DNA from: Amoebophrya sp. A120
Lineage: Eukaryota; Protista; Dinoflagellata
Length of the DNA: 64,000 bases
NCBI GenBank assembly: GCA_905178155.1
Contig: CAJINV010000002.1
Span: 1,919,216 to 1,983,215, forward strand
Reading direction: 5' to 3'
This document shows, piece after piece, positions 28,380 to 64,000 of this stretch. Every line of letters begins with the position of its first letter. Within the stretch, counting starts at the first letter, position 1. The notes under the pieces are model-generated. The model did no database searches, was not told where the DNA came from, and worked only from the letters and a program-made list of their open reading frames with translations. A program made the position numbers and the translations under genes.

Positions 28380-31300
28380 CTACGTCGGCAGTGGGCCGTG
28401 CACGCAATACGCGGGTAACGGACCACGGTCGTTATGTGATGTTGAAGCCACTTTTGGTGTTGGTAAGCCGTTGTCTGCACCAGCTGACTCACCACCTCCT
28501 ACCGTCGAATTGCTCCCCGTGGTCGTTGATGAAAGAGACCTTCCACTTCCGCCATGCTGAACTCCCGCTGCTCTACTCTCCGCACTCGGGGAAACGAGTG
28601 ACAAGTACAACTTGAACAATTTCCGGAACTCCGCCTGGTCCACCGCGCCACCGCTAATTTGGTGCCCGTGCTCCAGCAAGGCGCGGTCACAGACGCGGCA
28701 AGCGGTTTCCATGTAGTAGGGGCTGTACCGCGGTACCACCCAGTAGTAGCTTCCTTTGCTGAAAACGACTTCCGCACCCTTGTACGCCTGTCTGGGAGGG
28801 TATGGATTGGAAGTTTTCGTCCATCGGGGTTGTGCGCATGCAAAATGGAGGAATAATTTTGCCACCATTTTGGAGCGATTCTTGTGTCTGTTTCTGAAGC
28901 AGCTACTTACTTACAACGTCGTCGGCAAGAACAGCAGTTTCATCTGTCATGCGCTTTGCACTTCTAGCACTTGGACATGCACAGCGTACAACGACGAAAA
29001 TTTCCACTACATAGTGTTTCCCCCCAGCCGACTCCGTGCATGTGGAAGGTGCGCCGCATCCAGGACCAGGGTTTCTTGTCCGTGTCGGAAAAGGCGTTGT
29101 AGAGACAACGGAGGTGCGCGTTGCTGGGTTGATTTAGATTTTCACCACCAGATGTCGTGCTCGTCGTTTCTTGTACAAAGAACGGCGGTATTCCGACGGC
29201 CTTGCGCAAGTAGTTTTCGTAGTTCCAAGCGAGGTAGTGTCCACAGGAAATTTCCCGTACACGTACAACTACAAATGCAGTCTCTGCATGACAAAACTTG
29301 CCTTCAATCCTAGTCTAGCATGACAAGTTGGACACTGCAAGATTAGCGGAATTTGTCATGCATTTTGTACATGTACGGAAAATTCTAATTCACATTGCAT
29401 AGGTAGTCTTTGGTCTCAGAGTTCGCGTGGATTCTCTCTTCCACAAGGGGAAGCGGATCCGCGGATGATAAAGCAGGGTCAACAACTCCACCACCAGGCG
29501 CAGGCGCTCCCGGTAGTACAGCCGGTTGTTGTATTTTCACGACTGGCGGAACCCAAAAAGACAATTTGTCCAAGTCTTTCGCGTTTTGCTTCGTTTTGAC
29601 ACTGATCCCGGTTTTCGTCGTGCGGTGGTGCGTGAGTCCGACGGAGGGGTAGAGGGAGGAGACCCTGGTCAGAGTCTCTTCCTCGTAGTGGTCGTAACTG
29701 GACTTGACCAACATTGCGATCCTCTGGGCCGCCTTGTCCGTTCTTTTTTCTAACTCAAACAGAAAGTGCTTCAGCCCCGGGCCCGTTTCGAGATAGGCGA
29801 TGTGCCGATAGAGCTTTTCCTTTTGTTCTTGCTCGGTTTTCGCAGTAGAAGTAGTTGTTGTACCTGTGCCCGATGCTTGTTGATGATCATGTCCTACCAC
29901 TTCCAACTTCGGCAATTGTCCACTCTCCGTTTTCTCCCAGGGCCACGCTAAATGTTCGTGATCCTTCTCGTACTGCTTTACGTTCTGCCGCATTTCCTTC
30001 CCCGGGTCGATGCCATGGTAGGTGAGAATTTCCGTCATTTCGTCCGCGTAGTACTTGCGGTTGTCGATCCTGGGATTACCCGTTTTCTTCCGCCCAAAAA
30101 GTGCGGGGCTGTTACCGTTCATCATGATTGGATACCCCGTCTTCGCGTTTACTTTCAGCTTGTCAATAATGAAACTCACAATCGTGTCCCAGCCGGACGT
30201 CAGCCGCTCAAACGACATGTACGGGATCAAGTAGTACTCAAACACACGTCGACTGGTCATCCACCCCAGGCCACCAAAGTGGTTCTCGCGAAACACGTAA
30301 AGCGCGTCGTGCCGGGAGTTCCTGTTTTCTGGTGTGGTCCCACTCCCGGGTGCAGGTCGTGCGGAAGTGGAACTCAAATCCCGGATGTTTTTCGTGACCT
30401 CCAAGCCGTTGTCGTTCCAAGCGGAAACGGAAATCAAAGAGTAGTCCTCGTCCATAACCGGGATCAAATTGCGGAAAAATTTATCTTATACTGTGCAAAA
30501 GTATCGTACTAGTTCTGCTACTAGAAATGGCATTACAAATTTTTTCCAGATGGTGGAAAATGGAACTTCTCATGCTGAATTGGCTAAGAAACCGATTCTG
30601 TCATGCTGTACTGCAAGTCGTAGTAGTACGACTACGAGTACGATACTTTTGCAATTCATATATCCAAAGACACCGACACATCCAAGTCATCCTCCATATG
30701 GAGTTCTCAAATGTTACATTCTCAGCTGTTACATGATTTGTCATGCAAAACTACCTTAAGCCGACAGATAATCAAGCTGCTTCGCATGACAAATCTCCGA
30801 AGGACTCAACAGCACCTAAATCTGTGCCAGATCTGTGATGCGAAAGCAGGAAGCTGGCCCCTTTGACTGTTGCCATTCTTGCATCACAAATTCATGTAAC
30901 AGTTGAGAATGTAACGTTTGAGAACGCCATACTCCAAAACCGCAACATGATCGTAGAAGAGAAACAGCAACCCCAACGCCCACATGTAGTAGATGTGCAG
31001 CCGCACGTGGATCACCGACCATAAATGTTGGTTGGGTTTTGCAAGGGATTTCGCGTTCGGGCCGGCATCGGATGTTATGTGGTAAAACCCGTTCTTCTGG
31101 TCATTCCAATATTCTGAATTCAAAGCCGGGAAAACCGAAATGCCCCCCGCGTTTTTCATTTTTCTAATCCCGGTGCAGGGTTCCTGGTGCTGGGTGAGCA
31201 CTAACGCGTCCATCACTGGCGGGGGCTTGCCATGTGGTTTGTTTATTTGCGGTGGCGAAGGTCTACTTGGGGGCGCTGGCGGTGCTGGGGGTTTGGGCCG

Positions 31301-33699: not shown

Positions 33700-35050
33700 G
33701 GGTTACCGGACGCCGGCGTGCGGCGGATCAACACGGAAAACGAGCTCGCTGGTCGCTGCGCGCACTGAAGGCACACGTCGAACCACGCCAGCAAACAGAG
33801 ACACGGACGCGGCCGCCCGGATGCACGGTGGGGCGCGAGACAATCGGCGCGGGCGTGCAAAGGCGGAGAACCCACACCACCGGGCCCGCCCAAGGGAAGG
33901 GGGGCACAACGACTCACCCCGGTGCCCGGGCCGGGCACGAAGACGGGGGGCCGCATTTGCTGCGCGCCTCGGGGGGCCGGGCCGGCCTATTTATGACCCC
34001 CAGGCCCAAAGCCGGCCGCCCACGCCATGCATCCACGCGGCGCCGCCTTCCAGCGCAAAAAGGGCGGGCCTCCTTGGGGCAATGAGGGCAGCGCCGCCAA
34101 CTTTGGCGGCCGACGCCTTCGGCGCGCAAATATATGACGCGCGCCGGAGCGGGCGTGCCGGCAAAGGACCTGCGAAAAGCGCGCGGAACACACTGCAGGC
34201 CGGCGGGGCCGGGGGCAGGATGGGGCAGACGGCGAAAGCGGCAGCGGCTGGCGTAGCAAAATTTTGGCTCGTTCGATTTGCTGACCGCACGGAGCGCGCC
34301 TGCTGGGGCGCGCCAGCGGCTTCGATTGCTAGAGGAAACGAAGGAAGGGCCACGCCAGCAGCTTCTCGGACGTTGGGTTTTTTTTGAAAGGGCGACGGGA
34401 CACGCTGGCGCCAGGGCCGAGCAGCCTAACAGTAACGGCGTCGGCCCGGGCGCAACACGGAAACTGCGGCGGGCCCCCAACACTGAACGTCGCCCGCCAA
34501 GGCTTGCCCGCTGCCGCCGCGCCTTGCCGCTTTGCGGCCCAGTGCGAAGGCCCCCGCCCCAAAGAAACCAGAGGCGCCCGGGCAAGGCGGGCGCCTCTTT
34601 TTTGGCTTTTTTTGAAGGCGCAGGCCCAAGGTTTCGGCCCCCCGAGCACCTTCGCCCTGTGCGTCTCCTCAATGGGGTGGCGCTCGCCTTTCCGCTCTTT
34701 TGCGCATGCCTCGCGCTCTCTCTTTCACGGGCACGACTCGCACCACCCGGCGCGCCCATCGACGACTCTTGGATCGCCATCGCGGAAGCTGCTGGGCTGC
34801 AAAATCTGGCCACTGCAAACAGGTTGTCCGACTTACGTAAGCCCGTCGCTATTTGCTTTGCGGGAAAGTTGCTGGGGCTCAGCAACAACGTCGCCGCGAA
34901 CGGCTCTTGGGCGATTGGCTGGCCATTGAAAATCCGCAGAGTTATGGGCCCAACTAAGTCTAGAGGGCACCAGGGGCGGCCATGGGGCCCCAGTGCAGTG
35001 GGGACGCGCGCCCACCCTGCACCGCCGCGCTTTCAACAGACCGCCGCTTA
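33700..35050. other. GC-rich non-coding intergenic island
   Basis: Same composition; upstream of the GT13 gene; boundaries approximate. Confidence 0.6.
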
Positions 35051-45900: not shown

Positions 45901-48900
45901 CCCCTGCTGTATGCAATACAAATTTACCGTGCATGCACGAAATGCATGACAAATTTTGGTTCAAGCTATGAAAAACAGTGATTTGTAATGCTGAATGAGG
46001 TAGGACAAGTTTTTTGTTATGCGTGGTCATCATCTGTAGTAGTACGTGCGTGTACGGGAAACGTGCTCCTGCTGTGAATATGCTCGAGCCTCGTCCGGTC
46101 CATGTGGTTGACGGATTCCTGCGCGAGAATCACCAAGTGGATCACGTGTTCCACTTCGGTTGTGTTTAAAATTCCTATATGAGAGTGCAAAACTCGCCCT
46201 CCCCCTCATTTGTAGTGCATTTCTAGCAACAGAAACCACCTCAAAACTGCAGTCTCTGCATTACAAATCCGCGCACGGAGCATAGTGCAGTTTGGGTTTC
46301 CAGAACTTGTCATGCAAGCACAGCCAAGAGGCTCAGACAGGATTTGGCATTTTTGCATGACAAATGAGGGGGAGGGGGAGTTGTGCACTCTCATAGCCTA
46401 AACTCCTTTTGTAGTAGTAGAAATCCAGCACGAAGTTCATCACCTCGATCGGTAACTCGTCGAACGGATCCGCTGTCAACGAAAACCCAAGCAGCAGTCT
46501 CGTGTGCAAAAAGTGCAAGTCCTTGTTTTTCAAAGTTTTCCGCCCTGGGCACCGATTGAAGAAGTCCTTCATTTCCTTATCTTCGCTGCTCATGTCCACT
46601 TTGGATTTCGTTTCAAAATTCGTGATGTTCGACTGGAGATATTGCTCGAAGAGTTTCTGGCCAGCGGCGTTTTCATTTTGGTCCGCCGAGTTGTTGTAGC
46701 CGCGGAGCTTTTCTTCATCTTGACTAGTAGCAGTACCAGCGGCATAGGACGAAGCAGTTTGGTCGTCGACCGAGGAACTACCACCTGCTGCACCCTTTCC
46801 CTTGCCTTTCGACTTGTCCATATCCAGAAACGAGAAGTCCACGCAATACGCGTCTAAACACTGCAGCACGTCGAAAAGGATTTTAAACAATAATTTCTGA
46901 ATGTCGAAAATGTTCTGAAATTCCCTAGTTACCAAGTTGTGGATGTTTAGCACCGCTTCCACCATCCACTGTAACACCAGTTGCTCGTCGCAGAAGTTTT
47001 TGAAACAGTCCAAAACCATGGAGAGATAGTGGAACAACACATTCGTGTCGATTGTCGTTTTGGTCCGGATCTTCTTATACTCCCTTTTTTCTTCTTCCGT
47101 CATGTGTTCGTGATCCGGGTGGGGTAAGTGTTTGTGGTTCGAATTCCACAGATCGTGCTCGTGGTAGGTTTATGAATTGCAAAAGACTCGTACTCGTATA
47201 GATGCATGACAAATGCCCTCAACGTGAGAAATGAAATTTGTAATGCGGATTTACCTTGAGAAAAAAATTTGTAATGCATGATTGCAATTACTACGAGTAC
47301 GATGCTTTTGCACAGGATAAGGCTTTGCTTTGGAACTCATCTTCGGAGGAAGAGGAAGAACTCGATTCCTCTTCATCCAATTTCTCTTCCTCAAAACCCT
47401 GTTGATCACCACCGCCTTCCTTCTCCCGGTCCCTCCTCAACTTGTCCATTTTCATCGCGTGTTTGGTTTTGATCGTCCCTAAGTTTGCGAGAATGATCAA
47501 CAGCCTGATGAAATGCGGTAAATTCTCCCTGCACCCGAGACTCCCGTTCATTTGCTGCTGCTGCAATTTCAAAAAAACTTGTCTGGCGTTCTTCGGATGT
47601 TTCCCAGGACTCTTCAAATTCTGGTGCAAGTAGTTCTGCTGCTGCCCGCGGAGTTTCATCATCGCGGCGACTTGGGAATTGCTCATTCTCGCCCGGAGTC
47701 TCGGCGGGATTTGGTTCTTATTGCTTCCTCTTTGCGTCGCTTTGGTCGTTTTCGAACCCGAGGGGGAAGATGCTGCACCGCCACTTCTTCCAGCGTCTTT
47801 CTGCACGGCGGAAACTTCGAAGGATTTCAGAGCGCCACCAACACGATATCAAATGCAAAAATGTCTGGGTCTGGAATCTTGCAACTTGTGATGCTGTCTT
47901 TGGAATTGGAAGGTAAAAAAAAATCTGTATTGCATGACCAGCAAGACGGGGAGTTCAGTTTGTGCTACGGGGAGTGGGCGTTTCTCATGCGGAATACGCA
48001 TCAGAAGGCCCTTTAAAAATCTGCGATGCTAGGCCATGCATTACAGGCATCACGGGTTATGCAAAATATGCATGACAAACCTGGCAATCTTCGTCTTCCA
48101 GACCCAGACATTTTTGCACTTGATACACCGCCAGAAACCCCCATCTCCTCCATCCGGATCTCCTCGTAGATGTCTTCCAAATCCTTCATCGCGATGGAGT
48201 GTAACGCGTCGAAAACCTCCTCCGGCTCTTTCTCCCAAATGGACTTCAAATAACCCCCTCCCCGGCCGAAGTTGATCGCATCCGCTTCTTCGTTCACGAT
48301 GTCGAGCTTTTCTTCTACGATCTTGTCCAGTTTTTTGTTCTTGATCGTCTCTAAATACCTCTCCGTTTCCTCCTTCGCCTGGATGAAAGCGAGATTTTCC
48401 TCCGACCTTGGCCCCACGGTGTAATCCCGGACGTTGACGCGGAGTTTCCGGTCCACTTTCTGTGCGTTTTTCTCGACTAAATTCATCACTTCAGTGATTG
48501 TGCGTTGCTTCCGGAATTTCAAATTGTACGGCATCTTGTATGCATACTTCCCCCAATCGGGCGGGAGCCCCTTGTACCCTTTTCTCACTTCGGAACCGAG
48601 GATAACAAGCCTTTCGGGAAACCCGGGATAGGCACGGAAAAACAACAACTGCTTCGGCCACGTCGTGCGGCTAGTTTGTTTCGCCTTCCGGGCCTTTTTC
48701 TGTTCCTCGGTTTCGTTTTCATCCGAAATCTCGTCATCGTCCGCTCGGACCAAAACGTCTTCGGGGAAAAGCACCTCGATGTGGTCCTCCCAATTCGGCT
48801 CTTCTTCTTGATCCTCATCAGAAGTGTCAACTTCTTCCCCCGCTTTCCGCTGCTTCTCCCGGTCCTTTTTCCGCTTCGCTTTTTCTTTGTCCTTTTCCTT

Positions 48901-51900
48901 CTTGTCCTTTTTCTTCGCATGCCCCTCTGCCGTCCACGTTTTTATCCCTAAAAGCTCGTCGTTCGCCATCAATAGTCTGTCTCCCTGCTCTAGTTGTCGT
49001 TTACTCGCCCAGGACCCGACGTCGACGTGAGTCAAAGTACACTCATCAACCAGGCTGGAAAAAGGCTTGTTCGCGTTCCATCTCCCTGTTCCCCAGTTGA
49101 AACCAAGACTCCCCTCCTCCGGCTCTATGGAGTTCGCCTGCACCTGGAAAAAACACAACTCGTGGGACCGTTTGAGAAACACCATGTCGATACAGGGAAG
49201 GTCCAAATACTTCTTCGACTCATGGAACTTCGTGATGTCATACATCCGCATCAACATCGCCTCGTCTTGGTGCTTGCCCTTCCACGACTTCGTTATCGAC
49301 GATGGCTTCGTATTGCTCGCCTGCAACAAAATATCCCCCGCTTTCAACTTGTTCCGGTGGCCGACAGACCCGAAATCCGGATCATCCACGACCCTGACCA
49401 CCGGGTACTCGGACCAATCGAGATTGAAGCCCCATATCTGCCTTAATTTTTCATACGACTTCAAATCTTTTGATTTGATGATCGCCTTGTCGACGTCTTT
49501 TTGCGAAAATTTGATGAAGCAATCCTGTAACTCCTTGGGGGGAATTCCTGGTTCTGGTTGATTTGTTTTTTTCTGACCCGGGATCAAAGTCTGCGAGTAC
49601 AATTCCGGCGGAAAATCGTGGTTGAACGAGACGACTTTTAAGAGATAAGGGAGGAGAAACGGCTTATTCCTCCCAAACTCCTGTTTCTGCTCTTTTTCCC
49701 TTGCCGCTCTTTCCCTTTTCTTCTCCAACAATTCCAGTCGTTCTTTCCTCTGTTTCTCGATCCGCTCGTGCATTTTGTCCATCTGCTCCAGCTGTGTCTT
49801 CTTTTCCTCTTCCTCCGCTTGTTGCCTTGCGATAATCCGGCCGGCGGGGGATCGTTTGTAGTTTTTCTCCTTCTCCAGCTCCTCTTCCGCGTGTTTCTCG
49901 CGTTCTAATTCTTCCTGTTTGACTTTTTCCTGCTCATCCAGCTGTTTTTTCTCCTCCGCTTCTGCTTCTGCTTGCTTCGCTTCCTCCTCCTGCTTTTTCA
50001 GTTCTTCTATGCGAGGCAAAAGCAACGGGCTCGTAACATGAAAAATCGAAGCCATGCATGACAAATCGATGGCCTGTATGGGAATCAGCATGACAAACTG
50101 CGTATTCTTCTCTAGAAAAAATTTTTAGTGCGATTTTTGATTACTACCACGGTGCTTTTGTAATGGAATATCTTCCATTTCCTTTTTCAATTCCTCTTCC
50201 TCTTCCAAAATTTCCTCCTCATTCGGCACGTGCTTCTCGATCGCCTCGTGCCAAAATTCGATCTTCTTCGTCACCTCCGATGCCAAATGCTCTAATTCCT
50301 GCCCCCGGTGCATCAGTTCCGGGGTGAAGCCGTGCTGGTGGCCTTGTTCCAGCGCTTGTTCGTATTCGTGGTGGAGGTGTTCTAGCTCTTTTTCCAGCTC
50401 TTCTTTCTCATGGAGGAGTTCTTTTTTCTTCCAATGCGGCTTGGAGTGAAATTTGTGGTCAAATTCTAACCGGACAGGGTCGACTTGTGGCTTACCTTTT
50501 TTTCCAACGCCTTTTTTTGGAGCGGCTTTGCCTTTCGGTTTTGCTTTCGCGGCTTTGGCTTTGCCCGGAGGTGCAGTGGCGGATTTCTTACTTGTTCCAG
50601 AGGCTGGTTTTTTCGGTGCGCCGCCGCGGAGTTTTGGCTGATTTATCGGCGTATCCTGTACAAAAGTATCGTACTCGTATTGCAATAATGCATTACAAAT
50701 TTTTTTCTGAAGCTAAATCCGCATCACAAATTTTATTTCTCATGCTGAGGACATTTGTATTGCATTTATACGAGTACGATACTTTTGCAGTTCATACGGC
50801 GGCGGCGCGTAGCCGTTTTTTGAACTTGTTAGCAGAGGTTGTGTTGGGATTGACGCAGTGGAACGTGGAGTGGAAAAAACGACAGATGATCGCTGTGCAC
50901 CTGCACCATCTCCCGCGCGAGCAGAGAGAAGCTTCTTTGCGTGTCTGAGTTCCGCATCAGTGGCTCGACGTCCGGAGGTTGAAGAGGAGGAAGCGGAATT
51001 GCCTGTGATTGGAAACGGCGGTTGCGGAGGAACCACTGTGGCTGCAGCACGCACTGATGAAACTGGCGGACCAGTTAACTTCGGCTTGTTATCGCTTGGA
51101 GCCACGACGAGCGGCGACCTTGTTCTCTGCTTCGTCCTGGAGGAAGAAGTAGGCCTTTCGTAGCTTCTAGTTGTAGCGGGCTGCTCGGTAGTTTCACTAT
51201 TGGAAGAAGAAGACTCTTGCATGCTCCGAAACAGCCAGGCGTCGCGATCTTCAGCGGTTTTTTCATACAACATTTCTGCAACTGCGTCACCACTTGACGG
51301 CTCCGGGTAAAAAAGCATGTTCATGTTCGTCTCATGCTCCAGCATCCGCTGCCGCAACAAAGCCATGCGCAACGGTAGTTGCATCTCATCCTCCTCCTTC
51401 AGCATCTCTTTCCGCAAACTCGCCAGCTCGTCCAACTGCGTCATCGCTTCATTTTGGTTTTTCGCGATTTTTTCGTTCTGTTCCTCCTTTCTCAACCTCG
51501 CCTTCAAAGTTTTCTCATCCTTCACCCCCTGCAACTTCTCCGTCAAATCTTCCGTCGCGAGTTCGTCCATGTGCTTCATCGAAGATAAGTTTTCCGGCTT
51601 TTTCCTCCAAAACTCGTCTGCAGCACGAGCTTTCGGTAAAAATTTGAAATCAGCCTCGTCGTTCGCATTCTGCAGATCTTGCTCTAGTTTTTCGGAATAG
51701 GTTGGTTGTTTCGCAATGTTGTTTCTTTTCCTATGCTCCTCCGTTTCTGGTTTTCTTGTACTTGGGTCCAACCCCAAAGACATCAAAAACTGGTGCGTCT
51801 GGCGTTCCGCAATCGCAGCTTCGACTTCCGTAGGGCGGTCAATTCTCGAGTTGTCCATTTCCTTCCCTCTTCTGTACCACTTCTTCGCGATTGTTGCGAC

Positions 51901-54900
51901 TTCTTTCCTCCGATTGCTATCCTCGTCTTTGTACCGGTTCACGATTTCTAAAATTGTCGATGGTTTTTTCCACTTGTACTTGTGCCTACTAGACTTGATG
52001 TAGTTGTCCCAGGGTTTCGGCACTTTCAGCCGCATGTTGTTCTCTAAAATTTTCAGCCGCAACTTCTCCGGAAACCCAAATCCAAGCGACAAATCGACTT
52101 GCGGAGCACTATCGTTGTTCGTCCCTTGTCTCCGAAACAGCAAGTATTTCGGCCAGTTCAAATTGTAGTCGTGTTTCGCTTCTTCGACGACAGTTTCTTC
52201 CCTATGGTGGTGAGAATGGTGCTTCATTTCGATCAATTTGTGCCGGAATTCAATCCGGCTGGGGTCGAGGATGATATTCTCTCCCTTGTCCCGTGCGAAT
52301 TTGACGTATTGCTGATCATTCACGATGAGCAATTCGTCCCCGACCTGGAACCCGTTGTTCGCACCCCAGTCCGTGCTGTACTTGAGAACCTCGCCAACCG
52401 TGGAAAGAGTCGTGTCGAGGTTTTTCGCATATTCCTCATCTTCGGAAGTGGATGCGGGGAAAGAAGGCGGGTTGAACACCCCGTGGACCACTGTGGATTT
52501 GTTTTCGATTTTGTCATTCTTCGGCGTGAAAGCGGAAAAGTTATCTACATTTTTTGGTTTCGTCGCGGTTGCTGCTAACACAGATTTCACGATGTTCGTC
52601 AAAGTCGTGTTTTTATTCCCGAGTAATTGTTCCAAATTTGTTGTTCTTTCCAACGCAAAATCATTCCCATCGCTCGTTTTCATCCGCATAGAATAAAACT
52701 CCACACTGTCTTGGAGGCAGTAAGGATCGTCGGCCTTCACCTGTAAAAATTCCTGCTCTTTCACGTATTTCAACAAGCAGAAATGAATGTCCCCCGCTTT
52801 CATCCGCGCTAGTTTGTGCAAAATCGCGTGCTCAGGGGAATTCGTCGTTACAGTGATCCCCTTTTGCGCCGCGGTTTTAGCACCTGGCTTCTTGTAGTCC
52901 GGATTCGCTTTCTCGAATTGCCACCACTTCAACATGCTATTCCGTCCGGAAATTACCGTGTCCATGACAGTTAAGAGCAAGTCCCCCGCCCGGATGTTGT
53001 ACTTCGTCGCGGCTATAGAATCCTCCGCCGGGTCTTTCGCGACGCGGACAAAGGGAAAACGTGACCAGTCGAAATATAACCCGCCATTCACTTTGGAAAA
53101 CATCCGGCAGCAGATCTGTGCCTGGTCTTTGTCGTTTTCGATCTTGTTTAAGTGCTGCTGGATCGCCTGGTAGGACGGGCGGAGGGGCATTTTCACCTCG
53201 ATTAGGCAATTGTTGTGAATCTCCGGGTTGTCGGAGAAGGGGAGGTACTGAAGGGTGAAGAACGACGGGGCTTTTTTCACTTCAAATTTACTGGCAGTGC
53301 TGCTTGACGGGGGTGATGGCGCAGCTCCAGCTTTCTTCTCGACTGCGGCAGCGCTAGAAGAAGACGTCAACATCACCACCTGTTCTTTCGACGCCCCTCT
53401 GCTCGACCCCGCTCCAACAACGGTTGAATCCTTCGTTGCCCCGTGGGCGCCCTCGAACTCGAAAACGCTTTTTCGGAGGAAGTTTTGTTCCGCTGATTCT
53501 TCTTCCTCTTTGTCTAGAGAGGACGGGAAGAGTAAATTGCGAACCCGGTTTATAACCCGCTCAGGTATTAAATTCAGCACGAGTTTGAAAAAAAAGCAAC
53601 TGCTTTCCTTTTTCGTCTTTGAAACCGAAAAAAACAACCATCGCCAATTTTGATCAAATTGGAAAGTTGATCCGCGTGCTATGCTGGTCCTCGGAGCTCT
53701 CGGACCTGTGAAAAAACCTAAAATATAACAAAAAAAGCGCACTTTTGGAGATTTTGAAAAGCTAACCACGACGGTGCGGGGTCTCTTTTTCCTTTCGGAC
53801 CTGTGAAAAAACTACTTTTCCGGATCCGGCAGAAACGGGCCGGGTTTTTGGGTCCATTCTTGGACCCTTCCCACGGCGGTATGAGGTCGATTGATTTCAG
53901 ATGTTAACGCCCCCCCTGGAGGGGGGGTGCTTCCTCATCCAGGTTTTCTTGCAGAAAAAGCTTGCTCTTCTCTTGTATAAAGTGTTGCCTTTCCAAAGAT
54001 CGAAACCGCGCCGGCACCTTCGCCATACCACCGGCGGACTTACCGTTTAGGGACACATCAACAAGAGAACTGGAAGACCTTCGGACCAGCTAGCTTAAGA
54101 GCTGGGCTTTGAAGTAGCGACTTTAAATGGCGACGATTTGAGAAATAGCGGCTCGCTTTTTTTCAAAATATCGCTGAATTTGATTCCTGAGCGGGTTATA
54201 CGGTTGGTCAGCGGGAGGTGGGGCTTTTTTATCGAAGGTTCTTTGTCATGCTGTTCTTCCGTCCCAGACGCAAGTTCAACATCAACGTGTACTTCCTCCA
54301 GATCGACTGTGTCGTCTAGAATCTGCTCCACATCGTGCAATTCGTCGTGGTCATCAGAGGAGGAGTCGTCGGAAGCAGAAACTGCATCAGAAGACTCACC
54401 GATTTCTTCCCCGAAAGTTTCGCTTTTCGGAGTAGGATCAGGATCTTCATCTGAAGGACCGCCAAATCGTTGTTCGGCGGCATGGTTGTTATGCGGTGCT
54501 AAAACAAGTTGTGCGTCTTCCACATCCTGTTTATGAACGGACAAAATGCAAAACCGGACACGAAAAAAACCAAGAATAGTTGCGATTTTCAATTTTTGGG
54601 CGGTTCAGAGTTGGGTCGTGAGGCGACGCGGTGCCCATGTTTGGGCGACCAACAGCGCCAAGAACTGGTGGCCGCGAAGCCTTGGCGCGGATGTGGGGTG
54701 GGAGCCTTTTCGGGGCTGCTGCTGGCGGTCCGCTTGCTCTTCGGCCGAGTTTCAACAAACGAAGCGAAGGCGCAAGGGCTTTGACCGGGATGGACAGCAG
54801 ATCCCGCCCGCGAGCTCTGCCAGCCCGCCTAGCGAGGGGGGCCCATAATGAGTTACGCCATTGCGCTTGCAACGGCGAGGCCGGGTTTCTGGTTTCGCCT

Positions 54901-57900
54901 CTGTGTTGCCCAAATATGGGCTCGGTGGTTATCATGGTCTCGGCATGAAAAAAAAAGGGAAAACCCGAACCCAGCGCCAGCAGGGGAGGGCGATCAGCCG
55001 CGCAAACCGGATCGGCGAAGGGGCCTGGGTGCTTCCCGGCGTGCGCCTCCCCCCCCCCCCTTTATTTTCCATCCCCATTCCCAGCCCACCCAACTTTAGC
55101 AAGGTGGCCCTCCAGTCCCCAGCATGTTCGCCATCCTTCTCCATCTTGCCTTCCCCTGCGCACCCAGTCCAATGTTTCGAAGGGTGTGGGAAAGCCTTCA
55201 TCCACACCTGCCATTTTGTATGTTGGGTGGGCGCTTTGCCGCGTGCGAAATTGCAAATCGGCAACAGAAAAAAAACAGGCCAAATGCGGAAAACCCAGGG
55301 GCCGCGATGTTTCTTCGGGCGGTCGCGAAGGGGCCCAACGACAAATATCCAGCGTTGAATGTGCGCAAGGCCGGGCAAAAAACCTGCAAGGCGTCGAGGC
55401 CGATTCAGGGCCGCAAAAGATGGCCGATCCAAGAATCTTGGTTTTTTCGCGGGTTTTTTTCCCCATCTGGCCAATTCTTGGCCAAAAAGCCGCTTTTTGG
55501 CCAAGAATTGGCCAGAAGGGGGAAAAAAAACCTGGAAAAAACCAAGACTCTTGGTAGGGACTTTGCGCGCCGCCTTGCAAATTCGAAGCGAAACGCCGCG
55601 CGCTTGGCCCGGTCGCGACTGCCTGCGGAAGTGTCGCGGCCCCGGCACCTTTCGTGTTTTGGCTGCTTTTCTTGTTGTTGGCTCGCAATTTTGCACGCGG
55701 CGAAACCAGCGCCCATCACCTAAAACCGTAGGCGTTTGAAGGTTTTTCGCAGCTTATGGCCTTGGGGCAGCGACGGTTTTTTCGTGGGTGTTTTGCCCCC
55801 TTCGGCAGCCAAGGGAGGGACCCTTCCCCGCGAATTTCGGTCGGGCAAAAATGCGAACAAATTCGGAAGCAGCCCCCCAAGCACGCTGCAAGCTTTTAAG
55901 CTATTTTTCCGCAGCCAATTTTTCCGACGGGCCGAGCGGCGGCTGGGCCCATGCAAGACCAGAGGCCACAGCCCCGCCTCTCCCTGTCCGCCCCGCCTCC
56001 CAATCCCAGCGCTTTGCATGGGAGGGCCCGCTTCAAATAAAGTTGGCGGAAGGCCTAAGCCTAGGCTCTTTCTAGTATCCCGCTGCCCCCTGTGCGTGAC
56101 TCCTTGTGGCCCAACTTCAGGCCACAAGCCTCGGCGAAGTCCGCTCGGTGGGCGGGGTGGTAGAGCTCGCAGGCGGGGGTTGTTGCCTGTCTCGCGTGAA
56201 GACTTTGCGCCTTCGTTTCGGGTATTGGTGTTGGGCCGAAGAGAGGGCTGATCGCGAACAACAACCCAACAAAAGAATCGCCTGCGCATCCGCGTCAAGC
56301 CTTCCCTGCGGCCAGTTCTTCTCGTTGTTGGCCGTCCGGGCGTTGTCGTTTCGTCTTCGCACACACTGGCCGCGAACGGCCGAAAAGGTGCGGATCACGA
56401 TTATTCTTGGTTTTTTTCGTGTCCGGTTTTGCATTTTGTCCGTTCATAATCCTGTTCCAGGAACTCAAGCGTCTCTTCATCCGTCACCTCCTTCACGTGC
56501 AGTTTCCGTTTGCTAGGTGACAACTCTTCGTCCGCGGTCTCCAGGTAGAACATGAACGCCTGACCAGTGGTGCTGGTCCAGGATTTAGAAAGAGCGTCTT
56601 TTGGTTCTTGGTCTTTCTCCTCTCCCTCGGACTGCGATCCCGCGAGCCAGGAAGTGTCACTTCCGTTCTCTTCTTGCTTGCCGCGTTCCAGCACACCGTC
56701 GATTTCTACGTCCGAAGCGGCGAAAATGGAAGATCTGGCAGCCCCTTCCGACGATGAATCTGACTCTGCTTCAACATCCTCACCTTCCAAATCTTCCGGG
56801 GGCTCCGGATAGTGCAGTGGCGCGCCGGTGGATGCTCCCTTTGAAAAGGTGGAAGCGCCCATCTCCCCCGAAGCAGCTCCGACCATGTTCCACCCATCTG
56901 GCAACTTCCGTCTCAAATTCGGCTCCTTTTCTTGCAAATTCTCAAACTGCCCTCCGGGTTTGAGCCCGCCGGTCATTGACCGAATGAGAACCATCACCGG
57001 TCTCTTCGACTGCAATGCTTTCTTCGCGTCCTCGGCCTTTTTCGCGTAGACAAACTGATCCGCAATGGAGACGAGCATTTCCGCTTGAATACCCTGCGAT
57101 TGTGCCCAGGATCCATCCGCGACAGAATTAATCTTTCCCGTTTCCGGATCTATCTCCATCCCGAGACAAGCGGAAGCGGTTCCATTTTCCTCCTCTTTCG
57201 CGACATCTTTCTCGACGAGTAATTGCACGTATTGGTCCTCCTTCACTTTCCGTAAGAACGCAAACGCCGCGACGGGGGTTTTCCCTCCTTGTGATCGTTC
57301 TTGCACTTTCTTCAAAATCGCCTCCTCGGGCGATTCCCCCGGCCAGCGCGCAACGTTGGTAATTCTTTCTGACATAGAGGCGCAAACCAGCATCCTGTCG
57401 CCGATGACCACGCCATTTTTAAACGCCCGGGTCTTCTCACCGTTATCATCTTGCTCCCTTAATTCGCTGACGGTGACACTTGGGTAATCGGACCAATCGA
57501 GTTTGATGTGGAAAACCTCGTAGAAAATTTGTCTTATCCTGTGCAAAAGCATACTAGTACTCGCAGTCATGCAAGACAGCTTTCTTTTTTCAAGCTAAAT
57601 CAGCATGACAAATTCCGTTTGTCATGCGGAGGTAATATGTATTGCAGTACTACGAGTACGATACTTTTGCAGTTCATATGTCTCGCGTTGTCCTTATTCA
57701 CGCTGGATAATTTCTCCGTATCGATCGACGTTTGCGCCCACCCGGTCACGCCCGCGGCTTTGAGGTCTTTGATCCCGCCGAGAAATTGGTAGAGATACGG
57801 GAATATGGATTGCAAAAGCATCGCACTAGTAGTAATCGCATTACAAATTAGCTCAGCACGGCAAATGGAACTTGTCATGCTGTTTTAGCTTGGGATGAAG

Positions 57901-60900
57901 ATTTGTAGATGCATGACTCTGATTACTACAAGCTCCATACCTTTGCAATGTATAGGGAGGGAGTTCGGGTCCATCTTCGATCCAGCTGCCATCGACTTGT
58001 TCGCGCCAGCGGAAGAGGTTCCTCCAGGCGCCACAGATTTCTTCGCTGCGGCGTCGGCCAACGCCATCGACTTCTGCGCCGAACCACCTGAATGGTCGCC
58101 ACCCACAGTGGACGCGCCGATACCCGAGGGCGCGGCGCCCATGGCGATGGATTTCTGTGCGTCTTGTGCGGATACAGAAGCTCGATCTGCGTCGGTTTTC
58201 CACTTGTCCGGGAATTCTCTGCTCATGTTCACCTCGTGCTTCTTCCGAACCGCGGATCCAAACCCGGAATCTATATTCTTCAACAACAACAAATTGCTCG
58301 TTTTACTTTCATGTAACAATTGCTGGACTTTATCCGCCGCCAATTCCGTCAAATCCCCATTACCCGTCGCGATGACAAAAGTTTTGTCCTTCACGATCAA
58401 TTCCGGTACCTTGCTCGCCCAACTCCCTTCCCGGATCTCCTTCACAAGACCTATTTTTTTCGATTCTTTACTCGTTTCAATTGTAATCCCGAACCCTTTA
58501 TCATCCTTGGTTAATGGCTTCGCCTTCACCTGGATGTAAGCTCGTTCATATTTCTGTCTCGCGAAGAGGAAAGTGGCTAAAGGTTTTTCCTTCGCCTTCC
58601 CCCGTTTGTAGATCCGGCCGAGGATTGCTTCTTCGGGTGAATCGCCTTCCCACTTCGTCAAGTTCGTGATCCTATCTTTCATATGCCGTGCAAAAGTAGC
58701 GCAGTCGTATAAATGCATTACAAATTTCCTCAGCATGAGAAATAAAATTTGTCATGCGCATTCACCTTACGAAAAAAATTTGTAATGCATGACTGCAATT
58801 ACGAGTACGATACTTTTGCACAGGATATTTCATGCTCGGGACGACTATCAACCTGTCCCCAACAACCACGTTGGCCTTCTTCGCAATCTATGCATTGCAA
58901 CAGTATCGCACTAGTAGTAGTTGCATCACAAATTTTCTCAGAAAGAGAAAGAAAGAGAAATGGAATTTGTAATGCCGATCCAGCTAAGAAAGTAGATTTG
59001 TTATGCAATGAACTAGTACGAGTGCGATAGTTTTGCACTGGATACCCTCGATGGTTCTTCCTTGCCCTCGGCGTTTTTCTGCGTTTCGACCACCTCAGAG
59101 ACGCGAACGATTGGAAACTCCTTTCCCCAAGCCGCGATTTTGAAGCCGAAGAGGTTGACGAATCTCTCCTTCGCGTCGAGTTTCTTGTTCGTCAACATTT
59201 TTGCGTCGATGGAATTCTGGTTCCAGCCGGTGAGCTATGACAGTGCACAACTCCCCCTCCCCCTCATTTGTCATGCAAAATATCCAATCCACCCTTTGCC
59301 TCTTGGCACTGTTTGCATGACAAGTTCTGGTAGCCCAAATAGCCGCCCCACACGACACCAGTGCAAATTTGTCATGCAAAACCGGCACTCTTGCTGATGC
59401 CTGTATTGCCGTTCATGCTATACAAATGACGACGAGTTGATGTGCACTGTCATATGAGTCCCGCCGCTTTGATGTCCGGCAGCATGCTGAGATAGGAGAC
59501 TAGGAAAGGCAAAACCGGAGCAGCGGTACTTGTTGCACCTCCAGTAGCGCTGCTTTTCTCGTCTTGTTTTTTCAAATCCGCTTTCGCCGCTTCGATTTCT
59601 TTGTCTTCGAGATTTGCACCGCCGTCGTGTCGTTCCTATGCAATACAAATTTCCCGCACATGGACAAAATACATGACAAATTTCGCTAACTTGGAGTGTC
59701 AAACTTGTCATGCTGACTAAGATTGAAGGGAAGTTTTGTCATGCAGAAACAACATTTGATGTACGTCATGTACGGGAAATTTACTGTGGATAGTTCCTCC
59801 ATCTCCGCCATCAACCGTTTTGCCGCTTCCGGTATGCATTGCAAATGTGCCTGGGTCTGGAAACTTGTGACGCTGAGTGGCGTAGCATGAGGAGGCCAAA
59901 AGTGCTGGCTGAGCATGACAAGTTTCTGAGCTTCTACTAAGGTGTTGCCTATTCTGCATGACAAACTGCGTTTCTGCATGACAGAAAACTGGGGCTCTTG
60001 GGTAACGTGCATGACAGATTTAAGAGTCATGCCAGGCAAGCATGACACAAATGCACTCTTCCAGACCCAGACATATTTGCACTTGATATCCGGGTCGGTC
60101 CATAACAAGGGTAACTTGAAATGCGGGAAGTCCTTCGTCTCCAAATTCTCTACCATCCAGTAGGGGAAGTGCCCGCCCGTATGCATTGCAAATATGCCTG
60201 GGTCTGGAAATTTGTCATGCTAATGTCCGAATGATACGCAAACTGTATTGCGGAGCCGCGCATGACAAGTTTCTGGGCGGCTACATCTAGCGTTAATCGC
60301 ATGACAAATTCCCTTTTTGCATGGCAACCAAGTGGCGCTGTAGCGCAGCAAGCATGACAGACTTTTGTGCATTGTCGCCCGAGCATGACGAGTTTGCATT
60401 CTTCTAGACCCAGACATTTTTGCAGTTCATAGCCCGTTCTTCGGAACAAAAAGTGAAAATCCTGGTTCTGCAGAAACGCGGTTTGGTAGTTTTTCTCCTC
60501 GTTTTTAACCCCAATGTCGATTTGGTAACCGGGGTAGGGTAACAATTTCGAGTTGACGGCGAGCAATGAGTCTCCAACCTCCAGCCCCACTCTTTCCGCC
60601 CAAGAGCCCGGCTGGATGAAGACGATGAAAAACTCCTTAAATTCGTTCTTCAGCTCGTTTTGCAAATGAGATGTCTGTCCCAATGTCATTTCCTTCGGGC
60701 CGCCGGAACCGGATTATGACAATGCATAACCCCCCCTCCCCCTCATTTGTAAAACATGAACGACAACACAAGCAGCGACAGAAATGGGCCTTTCGCATGA
60801 CAAATCTACACACGGACACCAGTAGTAGTCTAGTACTGTTTCAGTTTCCAAAATTTGTCATGCAGACAGTGCTTCCACGCAAGCGGTGGATTCGGTATTT

Positions 60901-63900
60901 TGCATCACAAATGAGGGGGACGAAGGGAAGTGATGCACTCTCATACGGATTTGTAGTTGGCAATGATCCTTTTCGACGGCTTGGTCATGAGAGTGACTAG
61001 CTCTTCTGTGGAAGTCGCGGCCTTTGTTTCCTCCTGCTTACGACCTCGTGCGGAAGCCGGGGTTGCGCCAGTAGCATTACCGTGCTCCGCTACCTGTTCC
61101 TCGACGAAAAACCCGAACCCTTCTCCGGGCGAAATCTCCTGCTTCACGTTCACAGACAGCTGCACAAACTGTGTCATACTCTTCTGCCTGAGAAATTCAA
61201 ACGACCCGACAAGTGTCGTTGTGTTCTGTAGGTATTTTTTCGGCAAAAACTTTTGCTTCTCTTCCTTCGCATCCAACGGTTTCCCGTCTTTATTCAGTTT
61301 CACCGCTTTTTTCTTCATCCGGCCGGTAGTTGGATCTAGCTCCATCTCCTCAGGGTCTTCATCCTCCTCCCCGGGTTGCTCTGGGTCCTTGTAGATATCA
61401 TTTCTCGACAGCATCTTCAACAAGACCGCCTCGTCCGGGTCGTTCCCGGGCCAAAGTCGGACGTTTTCGATCGGCTCTTCGTTCACGAATAACAACCTGT
61501 CCCCGACTTGCACCTTTTCATGCACTATCCTGTGCAAAAGTATCGTACTCGTATAAATCCGCTAAAATTTCTATGCAGAATCTGACGGACAAGTCGGTGA
61601 GAAGTCGGTTGCGAAGTTGGTTGCGAAGTTGGTGCGGAAGTCGGTGAGAAGTGGCGCGCGCCACTTCTCACCGACTTCCGCACCAACTTCGGTGAGAAGT
61701 GGCGTCGCGCCGCGACATGCTGGCGTCGTTCTCGCCTCGACCAAGCGACGCGTCGCGTCACTCCGTCGCTGCGAGTTATATCGTGCTCGCTGCTTGCAGT
61801 TGCCACTGCAGCTGCAAGAGCTGGAAGGAACAGCGCTGCAGATAAATGGAAAGAAGACCGCAGTCTTGTTCTGTCCGTTTATCTGCAGTGCAGTTTCATC
61901 AGTTAGCACGACGGAACCACGCGCAAAGCCGTATACAAGAGGCGGCAGGCCGCGCGACCGTGATTTCTGCGCGCGCGCATCTGTCCTGCGTGCAGCCATC
62001 AAAGAAAGAATCGCCGGAAGCGGAAGACAGCTTCCCTCGGCGATGTGGAGCTGCGCGCGGCTTGGGCGGGCAAGCTTTGAACGCCGGCCATTCTCGCCTG
62101 GCGCTGATTAATTAATTGATTAGCTGAGCAGCCAATTACTCAGCTAATCAATTGATATATTGTCTGCGTTTTATTTGTTTTCACAAAAAAACGCGAGTTT
62201 GCGTGCGCCCTACATCAAGTAATGCGCAAATCAATAGCTCACTTCTCAACAACTTCTCCACGCACTTCTCAACAGCTTCGCGACGAACTTCCCGACGCAC
62301 TTCGCAGCAAGCTTTAAGCTTTTGGAGGCGTCATGCAAGAATTAGCGTGACGCCTCCAAAAGCTCAAAGCTTGCCGCAGAATGCGCCGGAATGTTCGTCG
62401 CGAAGCTGGTAAGATGAAGTGCGTAGAGATGTTGTTGAGAAGTGAGTTATTGCTTTGTGCATTAATTGATGTAACGCGCCGCGCTTGCCGCAAAATGCGG
62501 CGTCGGCGTGCTTTTTACGTGCGGCCACGAATCGAGGCCCGGGATATTCCTTCTGAGACGTCCTAGCCGGAAGCCTGTCAGGAGCTTCGCGTGGATTTCA
62601 ACTCTGCGTCAAGCGTCGGAACAACCGCGGCAAGCGGTCTACGCCAACTTCTCAACAGCTGGGAAGTTGGTGAAAAGGTTGGGAAGAAGTTGATCATAAG
62701 TTGTTGGGAAGTTGGTGAGAAGTTATATTCATGCCAGTAGCGGATTTATACGAGTACGATACTTTTGCACAGGATATGCACGTACTGGTTCCATTTCGTT
62801 TTTTTCTCGTACACGGAAGCAACTTTCACGTTCGGAAACTCGTTCCAATTTAAGGTGAATCCACAGTACGGCCCGAGTTTTTTCTTTCCCGGGAAAACCT
62901 TCTTGTTGTTCAACAGCTCGTAGTCCTCTTCTGTGAAAAACGTGTACGCTATGAGAGTGCACAACTCCCCCTCCCCCTCATTTGTATAGCATGAGGAACA
63001 ACAGAAGCAATGCCAAAAATGTAGCCTTTGCATGAGAAATCCGTAAATGGAATGTAGTCCTATTTGGGGGTGCAAAACTTGTCATGCACAGAGTGCTTAA
63101 AGGCAAGCGCAAGGTGTGAGGTAGGTATTTTGCATGACAAATGAGGGGGAGGGGGAGTTGTGCACCGTCATATACGTCCACCCGATCCCGACCTTCTCGA
63201 TCAGTTTGTTGTTGTGAATCAAAGGGATCAAAGACCGCATAAACGGCGCGGGCTTTTGCGGAATGTTTGTGGCTACTTGCTGTGGTGACCCAGGTTGTTT
63301 CGGCGATAAAACAGGCGAAGACAGCGGTTGTTGCGGTCCTGTTTTCAGCATCTCGATTAAGTTTTGCAAACCGGAATTCTCCAAAACCTCCTCCCTTTCC
63401 GATTTCTTCCCGGCTAAGAGCCCGTTATTTTCCAAGAACTTCAGCGCTTCTAACTGTTGTAGATGAGTCGCTAGCAGTTCCTTCTTCCCCTCTAGACTCG
63501 GTCGGTGTTCCTGGGGTAAAACGGTTGTAGGGACTACCGTATTATTCTCCTTCTTTCGCATGTTTTGGAGGAAGTTGTCGCCGACATACTCCAGCAAGGC
63601 GCTGTTCATCGCGTAGAAGTCGTGCGGGACTTATCCACAAAAAAAGACCCGCCATCCCCATCCAGTTTCCCAGGCAAAACATGCATCAGAGCCAGTGCCT
63701 GCCATGCAAAAAATGGATGGGAATGGGTGTTTTTTCCTGGATAGAACTGGACGGGTTGGATCATCGTGGAGCTCAGGATGGTGGCCAAAGATGCGGTTGC
63801 CGAAGAAGCCTGGAGAGGTGGTACTGGAAGAACTTTGAGTTGCTGCTTGTCCTCTTGGGTCGGCACCATTTTTATCGCCTGGTAGCAACCCAAGAACTTC

Positions 63901-64000
63901 CTCCACGTCGTGAATGAAATTCTCTGCCGCAACTTCCACGTCGTAGACGAGACCCTCCTGGTTTTCTTGTCCTGCGGCGGAGTAGGCGTTAGACGCTGCA
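39961..64000 (-). CDS. Giant protein (>5120 aa, 5' end outside the window) with five tandem PDZ-like pair modules, coiled coils and a helical/ARM-like C-terminus; 26 introners + 1 GT-AG intron (42890-43052)
   Basis: 63939 to 39961 = 23979 nt minus 8604 nt of introns = 15375 nt = 5125 codons; frame is open to the window edge. Repeated motifs FxLDWSxYPxVxV...GDxLL...WPGxxPEEAIL and GSWA...GDxLL. Confidence 0.72.
40253..40572. mobile_element. Introner family D (320 bp)
   Basis: Colinear with 17076-17396; TSD acaat/acagt. Confidence 0.9.
40667..40816. mobile_element. Introner family B (150 bp)
   Basis: Family B TIR; TSD ccgag/ccgag. Confidence 0.9.
41497..41721. mobile_element. Introner family C (225 bp)
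   Basis: Family C TIR; TSD tggcc/tggcc. Confidence 0.92.
42454..42715. mobile_element. Introner family A (262 bp)
   Basis: Family A TIR; TSD cctcc/cctcc. Confidence 0.92.
43245..43398. mobile_element. Introner family B (154 bp)
   Basis: Family B TIR, right end cgta variant; TSD gagca/tcgca. Confidence 0.85.
44847..45054. mobile_element. Introner family E (208 bp)
   Basis: Colinear with 22529-22737, right end ggta variant; TSD tagag/cagag. Confidence 0.88.
45910..46080. mobile_element. Introner family J (171 bp)
   Basis: tatgcaatacaaatttaccg..; TSD tgctg/tgctc. Confidence 0.82.
46178..46395. mobile_element. Introner family C (218 bp)
   Basis: Family C TIR; TSD tccta/gccta. Confidence 0.9.
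47171..47319. mobile_element. Introner family B (149 bp)
   Basis: Family B TIR; TSD aggtt/aggct. Confidence 0.9.
47847..48125. mobile_element. Introner family A (279 bp)
   Basis: Family A TIR; TSD cacga/caccg; interior inverted relative to 42454-42715. Confidence 0.9.
50008..50170. mobile_element. Divergent introner, family B-like (163 bp)
   Basis: tatgcgaggcaaaagca / tgcttttgtaatggaata; TSD tcttc/tcttc. Confidence 0.82.
50652..50796. mobile_element. Introner family B (145 bp)
   Basis: Very similar to 22289-22435; TSD cggcg/cggcg. Confidence 0.92.
53551..54200. mobile_element. Large introner (650 bp)
   Basis: 15-bp perfect TIR tataacccgctcagg, ~50 bp imperfect; TSD cggtt/cggtt; removal gives LTNRVRNLLF. 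Confidence 0.9.
54532..56448. mobile_element. Giant GC-rich foldback-like introner (1917 bp) with an 8-bp TSD
   Basis: 47-bp perfect TIR tatgaacggacaaaatgcaaaaccggacacgaaaaaaaccaagaata; TSD atcctgtt/atcctgtt; removal gives FLEQDVEDAQ. Confidence 0.92.
55429..55554. repeat. Long inverted repeat at the centre of the 1.9-kb element
   Basis: 25-bp perfect stem tctggccaattcttggccaaaaagc (55466-55516) around a single base at 55491; extends imperfectly to ~60-bp arms. Confidence 0.92.
57535..57678. mobile_element. Introner family B (144 bp)
   Basis: Family B TIR; TSD tgtct/tgtct. Confidence 0.9.
57804..57954. mobile_element. Introner family B (151 bp)
   Basis: Family B TIR; TSD gggaa/gggag. Confidence 0.85.
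58682..58827. mobile_element. Introner family B (146 bp)
   Basis: Family B TIR; TSD tttca/tttca. Confidence 0.92.
58889..59044. mobile_element. Introner family B (156 bp)
   Basis: Family B TIR; TSD caatc/ccctc. Confidence 0.85.
59236..59454. mobile_element. Introner family C (219 bp)
   Basis: Family C TIR; TSD tgagc/tgagt. Confidence 0.9.
59637..59792. mobile_element. Introner family J (156 bp)
   Basis: tatgcaatacaaatttcccg / cgggaaatttactgtggata; TSD gttcc/gttcc. Confidence 0.9.
59833..60088. mobile_element. Introner family A (256 bp)
   Basis: Family A TIR; TSD tccgg/tccgg. Confidence 0.92.
60180..60431. mobile_element. Introner family A (252 bp)
   Basis: Family A TIR; TSD gcccg/gcccg. 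Confidence 0.92.
60715..60945. mobile_element. Introner family C (231 bp)
   Basis: Family C TIR; TSD cggat/cggat. Confidence 0.9.
61526..62776. mobile_element. Long family-B introner (1251 bp) filled with palindromes and short tandem repeats
   Basis: 39-bp perfect TIR tatcctgtgcaaaagtatcgtactcgtataaatccgcta; TSD tgcac/tgcac; removal gives QYVHEKVQVGD. Confidence 0.93.
61624..61691. repeat. Perfect 68-bp palindrome built from AAGTYGGT 11-12-bp tandem units
   Basis: cgaagttggtgcggaagtcggtgagaagtggcgc|gcgccacttctcaccgacttccgcaccaacttcg. Confidence 0.93.
62950..63172. mobile_element. Introner family C (223 bp)
   Basis: Family C TIR; TSD tacgc/tacgt. Confidence 0.92.
63632..63743. mobile_element. 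Minimal introner (112 bp)
   Basis: tatccacaaaaaaagaccc / gggtgtttttcctggata; TSD ggact/gaact; removal gives RPVPHDFYAMN. Confidence 0.82.

What the first reader, a model, noticed from the sequence alone, without database searches (positions are those of the whole stretch)
54532..56448. 1.9-kb foldback-like intron with a 47-bp perfect TIR, an 8-bp TSD and a hairpin at its exact midpoint
Seen: TSD atcctgtt (8 bp, unlike all the others) with the same TAT...ATA ends. The element midpoint is 55490 and the hairpin axis is 55491. Decayed inverted similarity continues inward (aagaactggtggccgcgaagccttggcgcggatg vs aagaactggccgcagggaaggcttgacgcggatg). The interior is GC-rich with no credible ORF and largely lacks the GCATGACAA motif. 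Known: 8-bp TSDs typify hAT transposons, and some hAT groups make 5-bp TSDs. Inference: a young non-autonomous element of a second mobilising lineage that the same machinery still removes, so TSD length would not be hard-wired.
Basis: partly seen in the sequence, partly recalled or inferred. Interest (0 to 1): 0.8.

Follow-up and report, generated by a model that had tools for sequence, protein, structure and literature searches.

The report
Transposon intron cut by fixed ruler
A 1.9-kb fold-back insertion in a gene of a parasitic dinoflagellate (likely Amoebophrya) duplicated 8 bases of its target, yet a likely mRNA contig lacks the element plus only 5 bases, as with its neighbours, which suggests these odd introns are cut at a fixed distance from their ends and narrows the unknown cut site to two positions.

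Summary
The anatomy is confirmed: 1917 bp, a 47-bp perfect TIR, an 8-bp direct repeat, TAT...ATA ends, a central hairpin, and decayed inverted arms reaching about 310 bp inward. It sits in a giant minus-strand gene whose named relatives are all Amoebophrya proteins. It works like the published A120-type introners.

In one transcriptome-like run the contig skips 1922 nt (element+5), not 1925 (element+8), so one extra codon is kept. All 9 displayed element junctions are element+5. The 8-bp repeat removes the usual 5-nt ambiguity: the cut lies 1-2 nt before the 5' TAT and 4-3 nt after the 3' ATA. The founding paper left this border unknown.

Best reading: removal is measured from the TAT/ATA-capped stem, not guided by the target duplication. 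An 8-bp duplication survives because 8 = 5+3. A junction that ignores the 8-bp repeat also argues against a reverse-transcriptase artefact.

Limits: one contig from one run whose RNA status is inferred, no replicate, no DNA-run alignment, and no genome for finding copies or a transposase. hAT membership is not supported.

The parts
54524..54531 (+). Left copy of the 8-bp target duplication
54532..54578 (+). [quoted passage not shown]
54579..54839 (.). Decayed left outer arm, about 70% identical to the reverse complement of 56141-56401
54840..55130 (.). GC-rich stretch with no inverted match to its mirror position (55800-56140) beyond shuffles
55228..55335 (.). Inner decayed arm, 69% identical to the reverse complement of 55601-55715
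55429..55554 (.). Central hairpin, axis 55491, 25-bp perfect core, 90% over 127 bp; carries a 12-nt match to the TIR on each arm
56141..56401 (.). Decayed right outer arm
56402..56448 (-). Right TIR, 47 bp; this is the 5' end of the intron in the transcript
56449..56456 (+). Right copy of the 8-bp target duplication
54528..56449 (-). Segment absent from the X1 contig: 1922 nt = element+5 (54529-56450 fits equally)
   Evidence: tables 5 and 8
56450..57529 (-). Upstream exon of the host gene
   Evidence: table 8
54201..54527 (-). Downstream exon, 327 nt
   Evidence: tables 5 and 8
46019..64000 (-). Host reading frame: 3689 codons with no stop once 19 elements are each removed with 5 nt; weak PDZ-like repeats; begins beyond the window end

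Best explanation
This is a likely non-autonomous fold-back DNA transposon that inserted into an exon with an 8-bp duplication and is likely removed from the pre-mRNA by a machinery that cuts at a fixed distance from the TAT/ATA-capped terminal stem, taking the element plus 5 nt as one transcriptome-like contig shows and leaving one extra codon. Shown: the anatomy; the 1922-nt skip; a 5-nt excess at 9 of 9 displayed junctions; a register of 1-2 nt before the 5' TAT and 4-3 nt after the 3' ATA that fits all nine. Inferred: that the run is RNA; that the TIR stem brings the ends together; that the ruler is fixed, so only duplications of 5+3n bases keep the frame and persist in exons. For the enzyme I favour a structure-guided nuclease plus ligase (about 0.5) over a modified spliceosome (about 0.4); this step is untested.
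For:: joint 54527->56450 skips 1922 with only 1 nt of ambiguity and 255 nt on the short side. Table 8 confirms it by arithmetic: record positions 2322-2648 leave exactly the 327-nt exon; excess is 5 in 9 of 9; the allowed upstream offsets are 0-3, -1-3, 0-5, 0-5, 0-5, 1-2, 0-5, 0-4 and 0-6, which intersect at 1-2; in 5 of the 9 (focal included) the flanks could extend the helix by 1-2 pairs and the excess counted from TAT is still 5, so the register follows the motif, not the helix end; no GT or AG enrichment in the target-derived bases in either register (47 elements); the +5 rule opens 3689 codons across 19 elements. RNA nature: X1-X3 hold 0.51-0.54 of the sampled words against an exonic share of 0.557, while X5/X6 hold 0.93; X1 depth is zero inside the element and falls toward the gene's 5' end. 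Predicted fold closes the TIR stem.
Against: The focal junction rests on one assembled contig (depth 8) from one run whose RNA label is a guess; contigs drop rare forms, so a minor +8 product is not excluded. Three raw RNA runs did not cover the gene and were no test. Only 9 of the 18 elements in the laid stretch had a displayed joint; 10 rows were hidden. Frame alone allows +2, +5, +8 or +11, so selection already narrows the outcomes to a few. Eight of the nine junctions have 5-bp repeats, where element+5 is also what repeat-guided removal gives: only the focal element separates the two models. No canonical intron was seen spliced in X1; the 'GT..AG' label at 47165 is on the non-coding strand. 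No enzyme was identified.
Confidence: 0.72

Rival explanations
1. Same fixed geometry, but the enzyme is a modified U2-type spliceosome without U1 that reads the intron start as N-U-A-U (offset 1) and finds the 3' site 4 nt past the stem.
For: PMC7789003 reports nearly all spliceosomal proteins, with U1 snRNA undetected. At offset 1 the second base is U in 47 of 47 elements, the register of spliceosomal 5' sites (recalled). A tunicate spliceosome is reported to handle non-canonical ends (PMC11282704).
Against: No conserved base at +1 or at the 3' site. A perfect 47-bp helix would bury the bases that U6 must pair with (inference). Offset 2 is equally allowed.
Confidence: 0.4
2. One reading: the machinery follows the target duplication and removes element+8, restoring the original exon.
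For: Element+8 keeps the frame. A minor form could be missing from contigs.
Against: The observed skip is 1922, not 1925, by both the joint table and contig length.
Confidence: 0.07
3. The elements are lost at the DNA level (programmed elimination, or an allele with an excision footprint), and X1 reflects that DNA.
For: X1's RNA status is a guess. TIR elements can leave footprints on excision (recalled). No DNA run was aligned.
Against: X5/X6 hold 0.93 of the words, so a DNA-sized data set contains the elements. X1 depth decays toward the 5' end, as in poly(A) libraries. A footprint matching the +5 rule exactly would be a coincidence.
Confidence: 0.08
4. The gaps are reverse-transcriptase template switches across strong hairpins, or assembly errors.
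For: Direct repeats plus structure favour such artefacts (PMC4176328, passages).
Against: A switch would be expected to use the 8-bp repeat (1925 nt); the junction has 1 nt of homology. No X1 coverage inside the element, and the unspliced frame has stops.
Confidence: 0.04
5. Origin of the 8-bp repeat: a second transposase lineage (Mutator-like fold-back) whose ends happen to be TAT, rather than a rare aberrant insertion by the transposase that makes 5-bp duplications.
For: The TIR has no other match in the window at 3 mismatches. Arms of about 310 bp and an 8-bp repeat recall MULE fold-backs (recalled). An A120 Mutator-like family with 8-9-bp TSDs is listed.
Against: The first 7 nt of the TIR equal those of common 5-bp-TSD ends in the window. 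The listed Mutator family has GG/CC ends. A fixed +5 ruler would also let rare aberrant 8-bp events through.
Confidence: 0.5

Closest known systems
Amoebophrya A120 introner elements (Farhat et al. 2021, PMC7789003)
   Same: TAT-starting inverted repeats, flanking direct repeats, non-GT-AG borders, no transposase, many per gene; host protein relatives are Amoebophrya (19 of 20 looked up; 1 unnamed).
   Different: 1917 bp, outside the paper's 40-1000-bp analysis window; 47-bp perfect and about 310-bp decayed arms against 8-20 nt; 8-bp repeat against 3-5 nt in the text (the Fig. S21 legend covers 3-8). The removed length does not equal element plus repeat, which fixes a border the paper's Fig. 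3 legend calls unknown.
A120 families in Dataset S2 of PMC12130899: fam38 (TA/TA termini, 5-bp TSD, labelled Ginger), fam65 (Mutator, 8-9-bp TSD, GG/CC termini), short 'palindromic' families 14, 15, 56
   Same: TA ends, 8-bp TSDs and palindromic bodies each occur in some A120 family.
   Different: None of the 58 A120 rows is annotated with TA ends together with an 8-bp TSD; the palindromic families are about 100-160 bp.
Euglenid nonconventional introns (PMC3935182, PMC11282704)
   Same: A terminal stem at fixed offsets from the borders (+4/+5 paired with -7/-6), repeats at the junctions, proposed MITE origin, and a proposed endonuclease plus ligase.
   Different: Different motif (CAG/CTG) and offsets (3 and 5 nt, against 1-2 and 4-3 here); unrelated lineage.
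Aureococcus introners that add codons (PMC9860276, Fig. 2F-G legend)
   Same: An 8-bp TSD with in-frame residue left in the mRNA.
   Different: Those carry their own splice sites and add 12 nt; this one has no conserved splice dinucleotides and adds 3 nt.
hAT transposons
   Same: 8-bp TSD.
   Different: Long fold-back arms, TAT ends, no transposase link; 8-9-bp TSDs also occur in P and Mutator families.

Membership tests
Amoebophrya A120-type introner | Inverted repeats at both ends starting with TAT | tested here: met
Amoebophrya A120-type introner | TAT, seven variable bases, then three or more A | tested here: inconclusive
   The A run starts at position 12, not 11; 15 of 104 ends in the window also have C at 11
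Amoebophrya A120-type introner | Direct repeat of 3-5 nt at the borders | tested here: not met
   8 nt; the supplement legend surveys 3-8 nt, figure not visible
Amoebophrya A120-type introner | Removed from the transcript at non-canonical borders | tested here: met
   One contig of one run inferred to be RNA; ends read TT..CA or AT..AC in the transcript
Amoebophrya A120-type introner | Repeated elsewhere in the genome | not testable with these tools
   No genome held; one copy in the window; none in viral or metagenome contigs
Amoebophrya A120-type introner | Host is strain A120 | tested here: inconclusive
   Relatives are Amoebophrya A120, A25 and AT5 at about 30-45% identity; the window's own protein was not among the 26 hits
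hAT | 8-bp TSD | tested here: met
hAT | Short TIRs beginning pyrimidine-A-purine (recalled, from no call) | tested here: not met
   Begins TAT; arms 47 bp perfect and about 310 bp decayed
hAT | Cognate hAT transposase with the same TIR | not testable with these tools
   No genome; no Pfam hit in 8 internal frames
Mutator/MULE fold-back | 8-9-bp TSD and long TIRs (long TIRs recalled) | tested here: met
   TSD range from fam65 row
Mutator/MULE fold-back | GG/CC termini as in A120 fam65 | tested here: not met
   TA ends
A120 fam38 (Ginger-like) | TA termini | tested here: met
A120 fam38 (Ginger-like) | 5-bp TSD | tested here: not met
   2/5 match at 5 nt, 8/8 at 8 nt

The most novel reading that the evidence does not exclude
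Amoebophrya removes tens of thousands of mRNA introns with a spliceosome-independent ruler nuclease and ligase that cuts 1-2 nt before and 4-3 nt after any UAU/AUA-capped stem, whatever its length or origin. This would license any TIR transposon with TAT ends and a duplication of 5+3n bases to become an intron, adding codons when n>0.
Probability: 0.4. Interest if true: 0.87.

Novelty: new variant of a known kind. Interest (0 to 1): 0.63.

Why it matters
How Amoebophrya's non-canonical introns are excised, and where their borders lie, is stated as unknown in PMC7789003, because 5-bp repeats make each junction ambiguous. This element is a natural experiment: its duplication (8) differs from the excised excess (5). 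It separates repeat-guided from ruler-guided removal, narrows the cut to two registers, and argues that the junctions are real processing rather than RT skips. It gives genome-wide predictions that existing data can test: exonic TSD lengths of 5+3n only, one constant offset at imperfect TSDs, and codon gain at 8-bp sites. I found no paper stating this geometry (searches). Figures S19-S23 of PMC7789003 were not visible and may bear on it; Roy et al. 2023 (Curr Biol) and Huff et al. 2016 were not read.

Tried and rejected
No genome is held, so no copy or transposase search was possible. The TIR had no exact match in metagenome contigs or viral contigs, nor in 13 of the 14 supplementary files of PMC12130899. 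No RNA holder on record was listed. Raw RNA runs X7-X9 gave 4, 0 and 0 reads: no test. There is no replicate of the junction and no DNA-run alignment. A word-based protein search found nothing. The HMMER search found 26 distant relatives but no annotated copy of this protein to read the junction from. Rfam gave 10 miRNA-type matches, all below gathering score and read as generic hairpins. Offsets 1 and 2 could not be told apart by stop codons or flank composition. The 5' and 3' dinucleotide counts in Dataset S2 were set aside as probably shaped by aligner preference. A 5-bp TSD reading of the focal site was rejected (2/5 match). The inverted-dimer idea (each half ending in a TIR-like motif at the axis) is weak: 3 and 7 of 1000 shuffles reached the score, post hoc and A-rich. 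Earlier scan notes held nothing.
Full report
Observation. The element spans 54532-56448 (1917 bp) with a 47-bp perfect TIR and an exact 8-bp flanking repeat. Its midpoint is 55490 and the hairpin axis 55491, with 25-bp perfect arms and z = -10.7 against 200 shuffles. The halves align as a decayed palindrome: about 308 bp at 70.6% from the ends, a middle part no better than shuffles, about 115 bp at 69%, then 127 bp at 90%. No internal frame has a Pfam hit (0 of 8 tested), and the GCATGACAA motif is absent. Intact repeat and TIR tips suggest a recent insertion of an old palindromic element (inference).

Context. The window holds at least 52 TAT...ATA elements; 48 of 52 match at 4 or 5 of 5 flanking bases, and only the focal one has 8/8 (the list was hand-curated with a bias toward 5-bp repeats, 11 of 60 rows dropped, 3 added). 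Removing 19 of them with 5 nt each opens 3689 codons on the minus strand from 64000 to 46019. The exon upstream of the element has 26 relatives; 19 of the 20 looked up are Amoebophrya A120, A25 or AT5 proteins and 1 is unnamed. None is the window's own protein. TAT ends match the A120 introner description in PMC7789003 (abstract, sections 10, 11, 12, 16, passages and supplement legends read). The strain is inferred, not shown.

The junction. Four runs were laid on 47001-64000. Three raw RNA runs did not cover the gene. Run X1 (contigs; RNA is a guess) gave 25 joints, 15 shown. Nine correspond to TAT...ATA elements; six look like cross-copy joints among repeats. The focal joint is 54527->56450: 1922 nt skipped, 1 nt ambiguous. 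Contig coordinates confirm the length independently, leaving exactly the 327-nt exon between the two flanking pieces. That is element+5. Element+8 would be 1925. The product keeps three duplicated bases, one extra glutamate codon relative to the inferred empty site. All nine junctions have an excess of exactly 5. Their allowed offsets intersect at 1-2 nt upstream of the 5' TAT, hence 4-3 nt downstream of the 3' ATA, and the focal element alone sets that narrow range.

Is X1 RNA? X1-X3 hold 0.51-0.54 of sampled words in 52000-58500, where exons make up 0.557; X5 and X6 hold 0.93. X1 has no depth inside the element, and contig depth falls from 36 to 8 toward the gene's 5' end. This fits spliced poly(A) RNA but does not prove it. 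There is no replicate and no aligned DNA run, and no canonical intron was seen spliced in X1.

Mechanism. Repeat-guided removal predicts +8 here; a ruler anchored on the terminal motif predicts +5. The data give +5. In 5 of 9 cases the flanks could lengthen the helix by 1-2 pairs without changing the excess counted from TAT, so the anchor seems to be the UAU/AUA cap rather than the helix end, though selection for frame filters these cases. The bases at the cuts come from the target and show no GT or AG bias in 47 elements. Cuts in unconserved single-stranded flanks at fixed distance from a symmetric stem resemble a nuclease-plus-ligase ruler, as proposed for euglenid introns (PMC3935182, passages). 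A U1-less spliceosome remains close behind: at offset 1 every intron has U at +2. A fixed +5 implies that only duplications of 5+3n persist in exons, which explains why the odd one is 8. Whether 8 reflects another transposase or a rare slip is open at about even odds.

Against my reading. One contig; eight of nine junctions cannot tell the two models apart; frame selection alone leaves +2, +5, +8 or +11; contigs hide minor isoforms; half of the 18 elements in the laid stretch had no displayed joint.

Known systems. It works like an A120 introner but departs from the described 3-5-nt repeat, 8-20-nt IR and sub-1-kb length, so I file it as a variant. hAT is not supported beyond repeat length. 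Dataset S2 of PMC12130899 (all 58 A120 rows read; main text in passages) already lists TA-ended 5-bp-TSD, GG-ended 8-9-bp-TSD and short palindromic families, so an 8-bp lineage in this organism is not new by itself. Codon gain on introner insertion is known in Aureococcus (PMC9860276, passages). Other papers seen: PMC11282704, PMC12005148, PMC12621601, PMC11170887 and PMC4176328 in passages; PMC13326754 as a listing and a term search with no hits. What appears new is the cut geometry; five searches found no paper stating it, but figures and subscription papers were not visible.

Verdict. Interest 0.63: it makes an open splicing question directly testable, on thin but clean evidence.

Noticed in passing
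window 61526-62776: A 1251-bp element with a 39-bp perfect TIR of the common short family, a 5-bp repeat, 12-bp subterminal tandem repeats and an off-centre hairpin (about 62205-62479). A long, young member that could lead to the parent of the 145-bp family; X1 has contigs from other copies.
   Followed up: partly
window 53551-54200: A 650-bp element with a distinct TIR and a 5-bp repeat, removed as element+5 in X1.
   Followed up: partly
window 28801-29013: TAT...ATA element with 17/20 end similarity but only 2/5 flank match; left out of the curated list. Its junction would be informative for the cut offset.
   Followed up: no
window 46019-64000 (minus strand): Giant gene, over 3689 codons, with repeated weak PDZ-like units; part of an expanded family found only in Amoebophrya among the named hits.
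   Followed up: partly
window about 2000-2500, 11200-12100, 26900-28000, 33800-34700: Very GC-rich blocks (up to 74%), probably intergenic; the non-palindromic middle of the focal element has a similar look.
   Followed up: no
window 19169, 43398, 45054: Three element ends deviate from TAT (one CAT, two TAC) while frames stay open under the +5 rule; the first two bases are invariant at all 47 transcript 5' ends checked.
   Followed up: partly
window 55436-55447 and 55536-55547: A 12-nt TIR motif recurs on both arms of the central hairpin, hinting at an inverted dimer of a unit of about 960 bp; weak support.
   Followed up: partly
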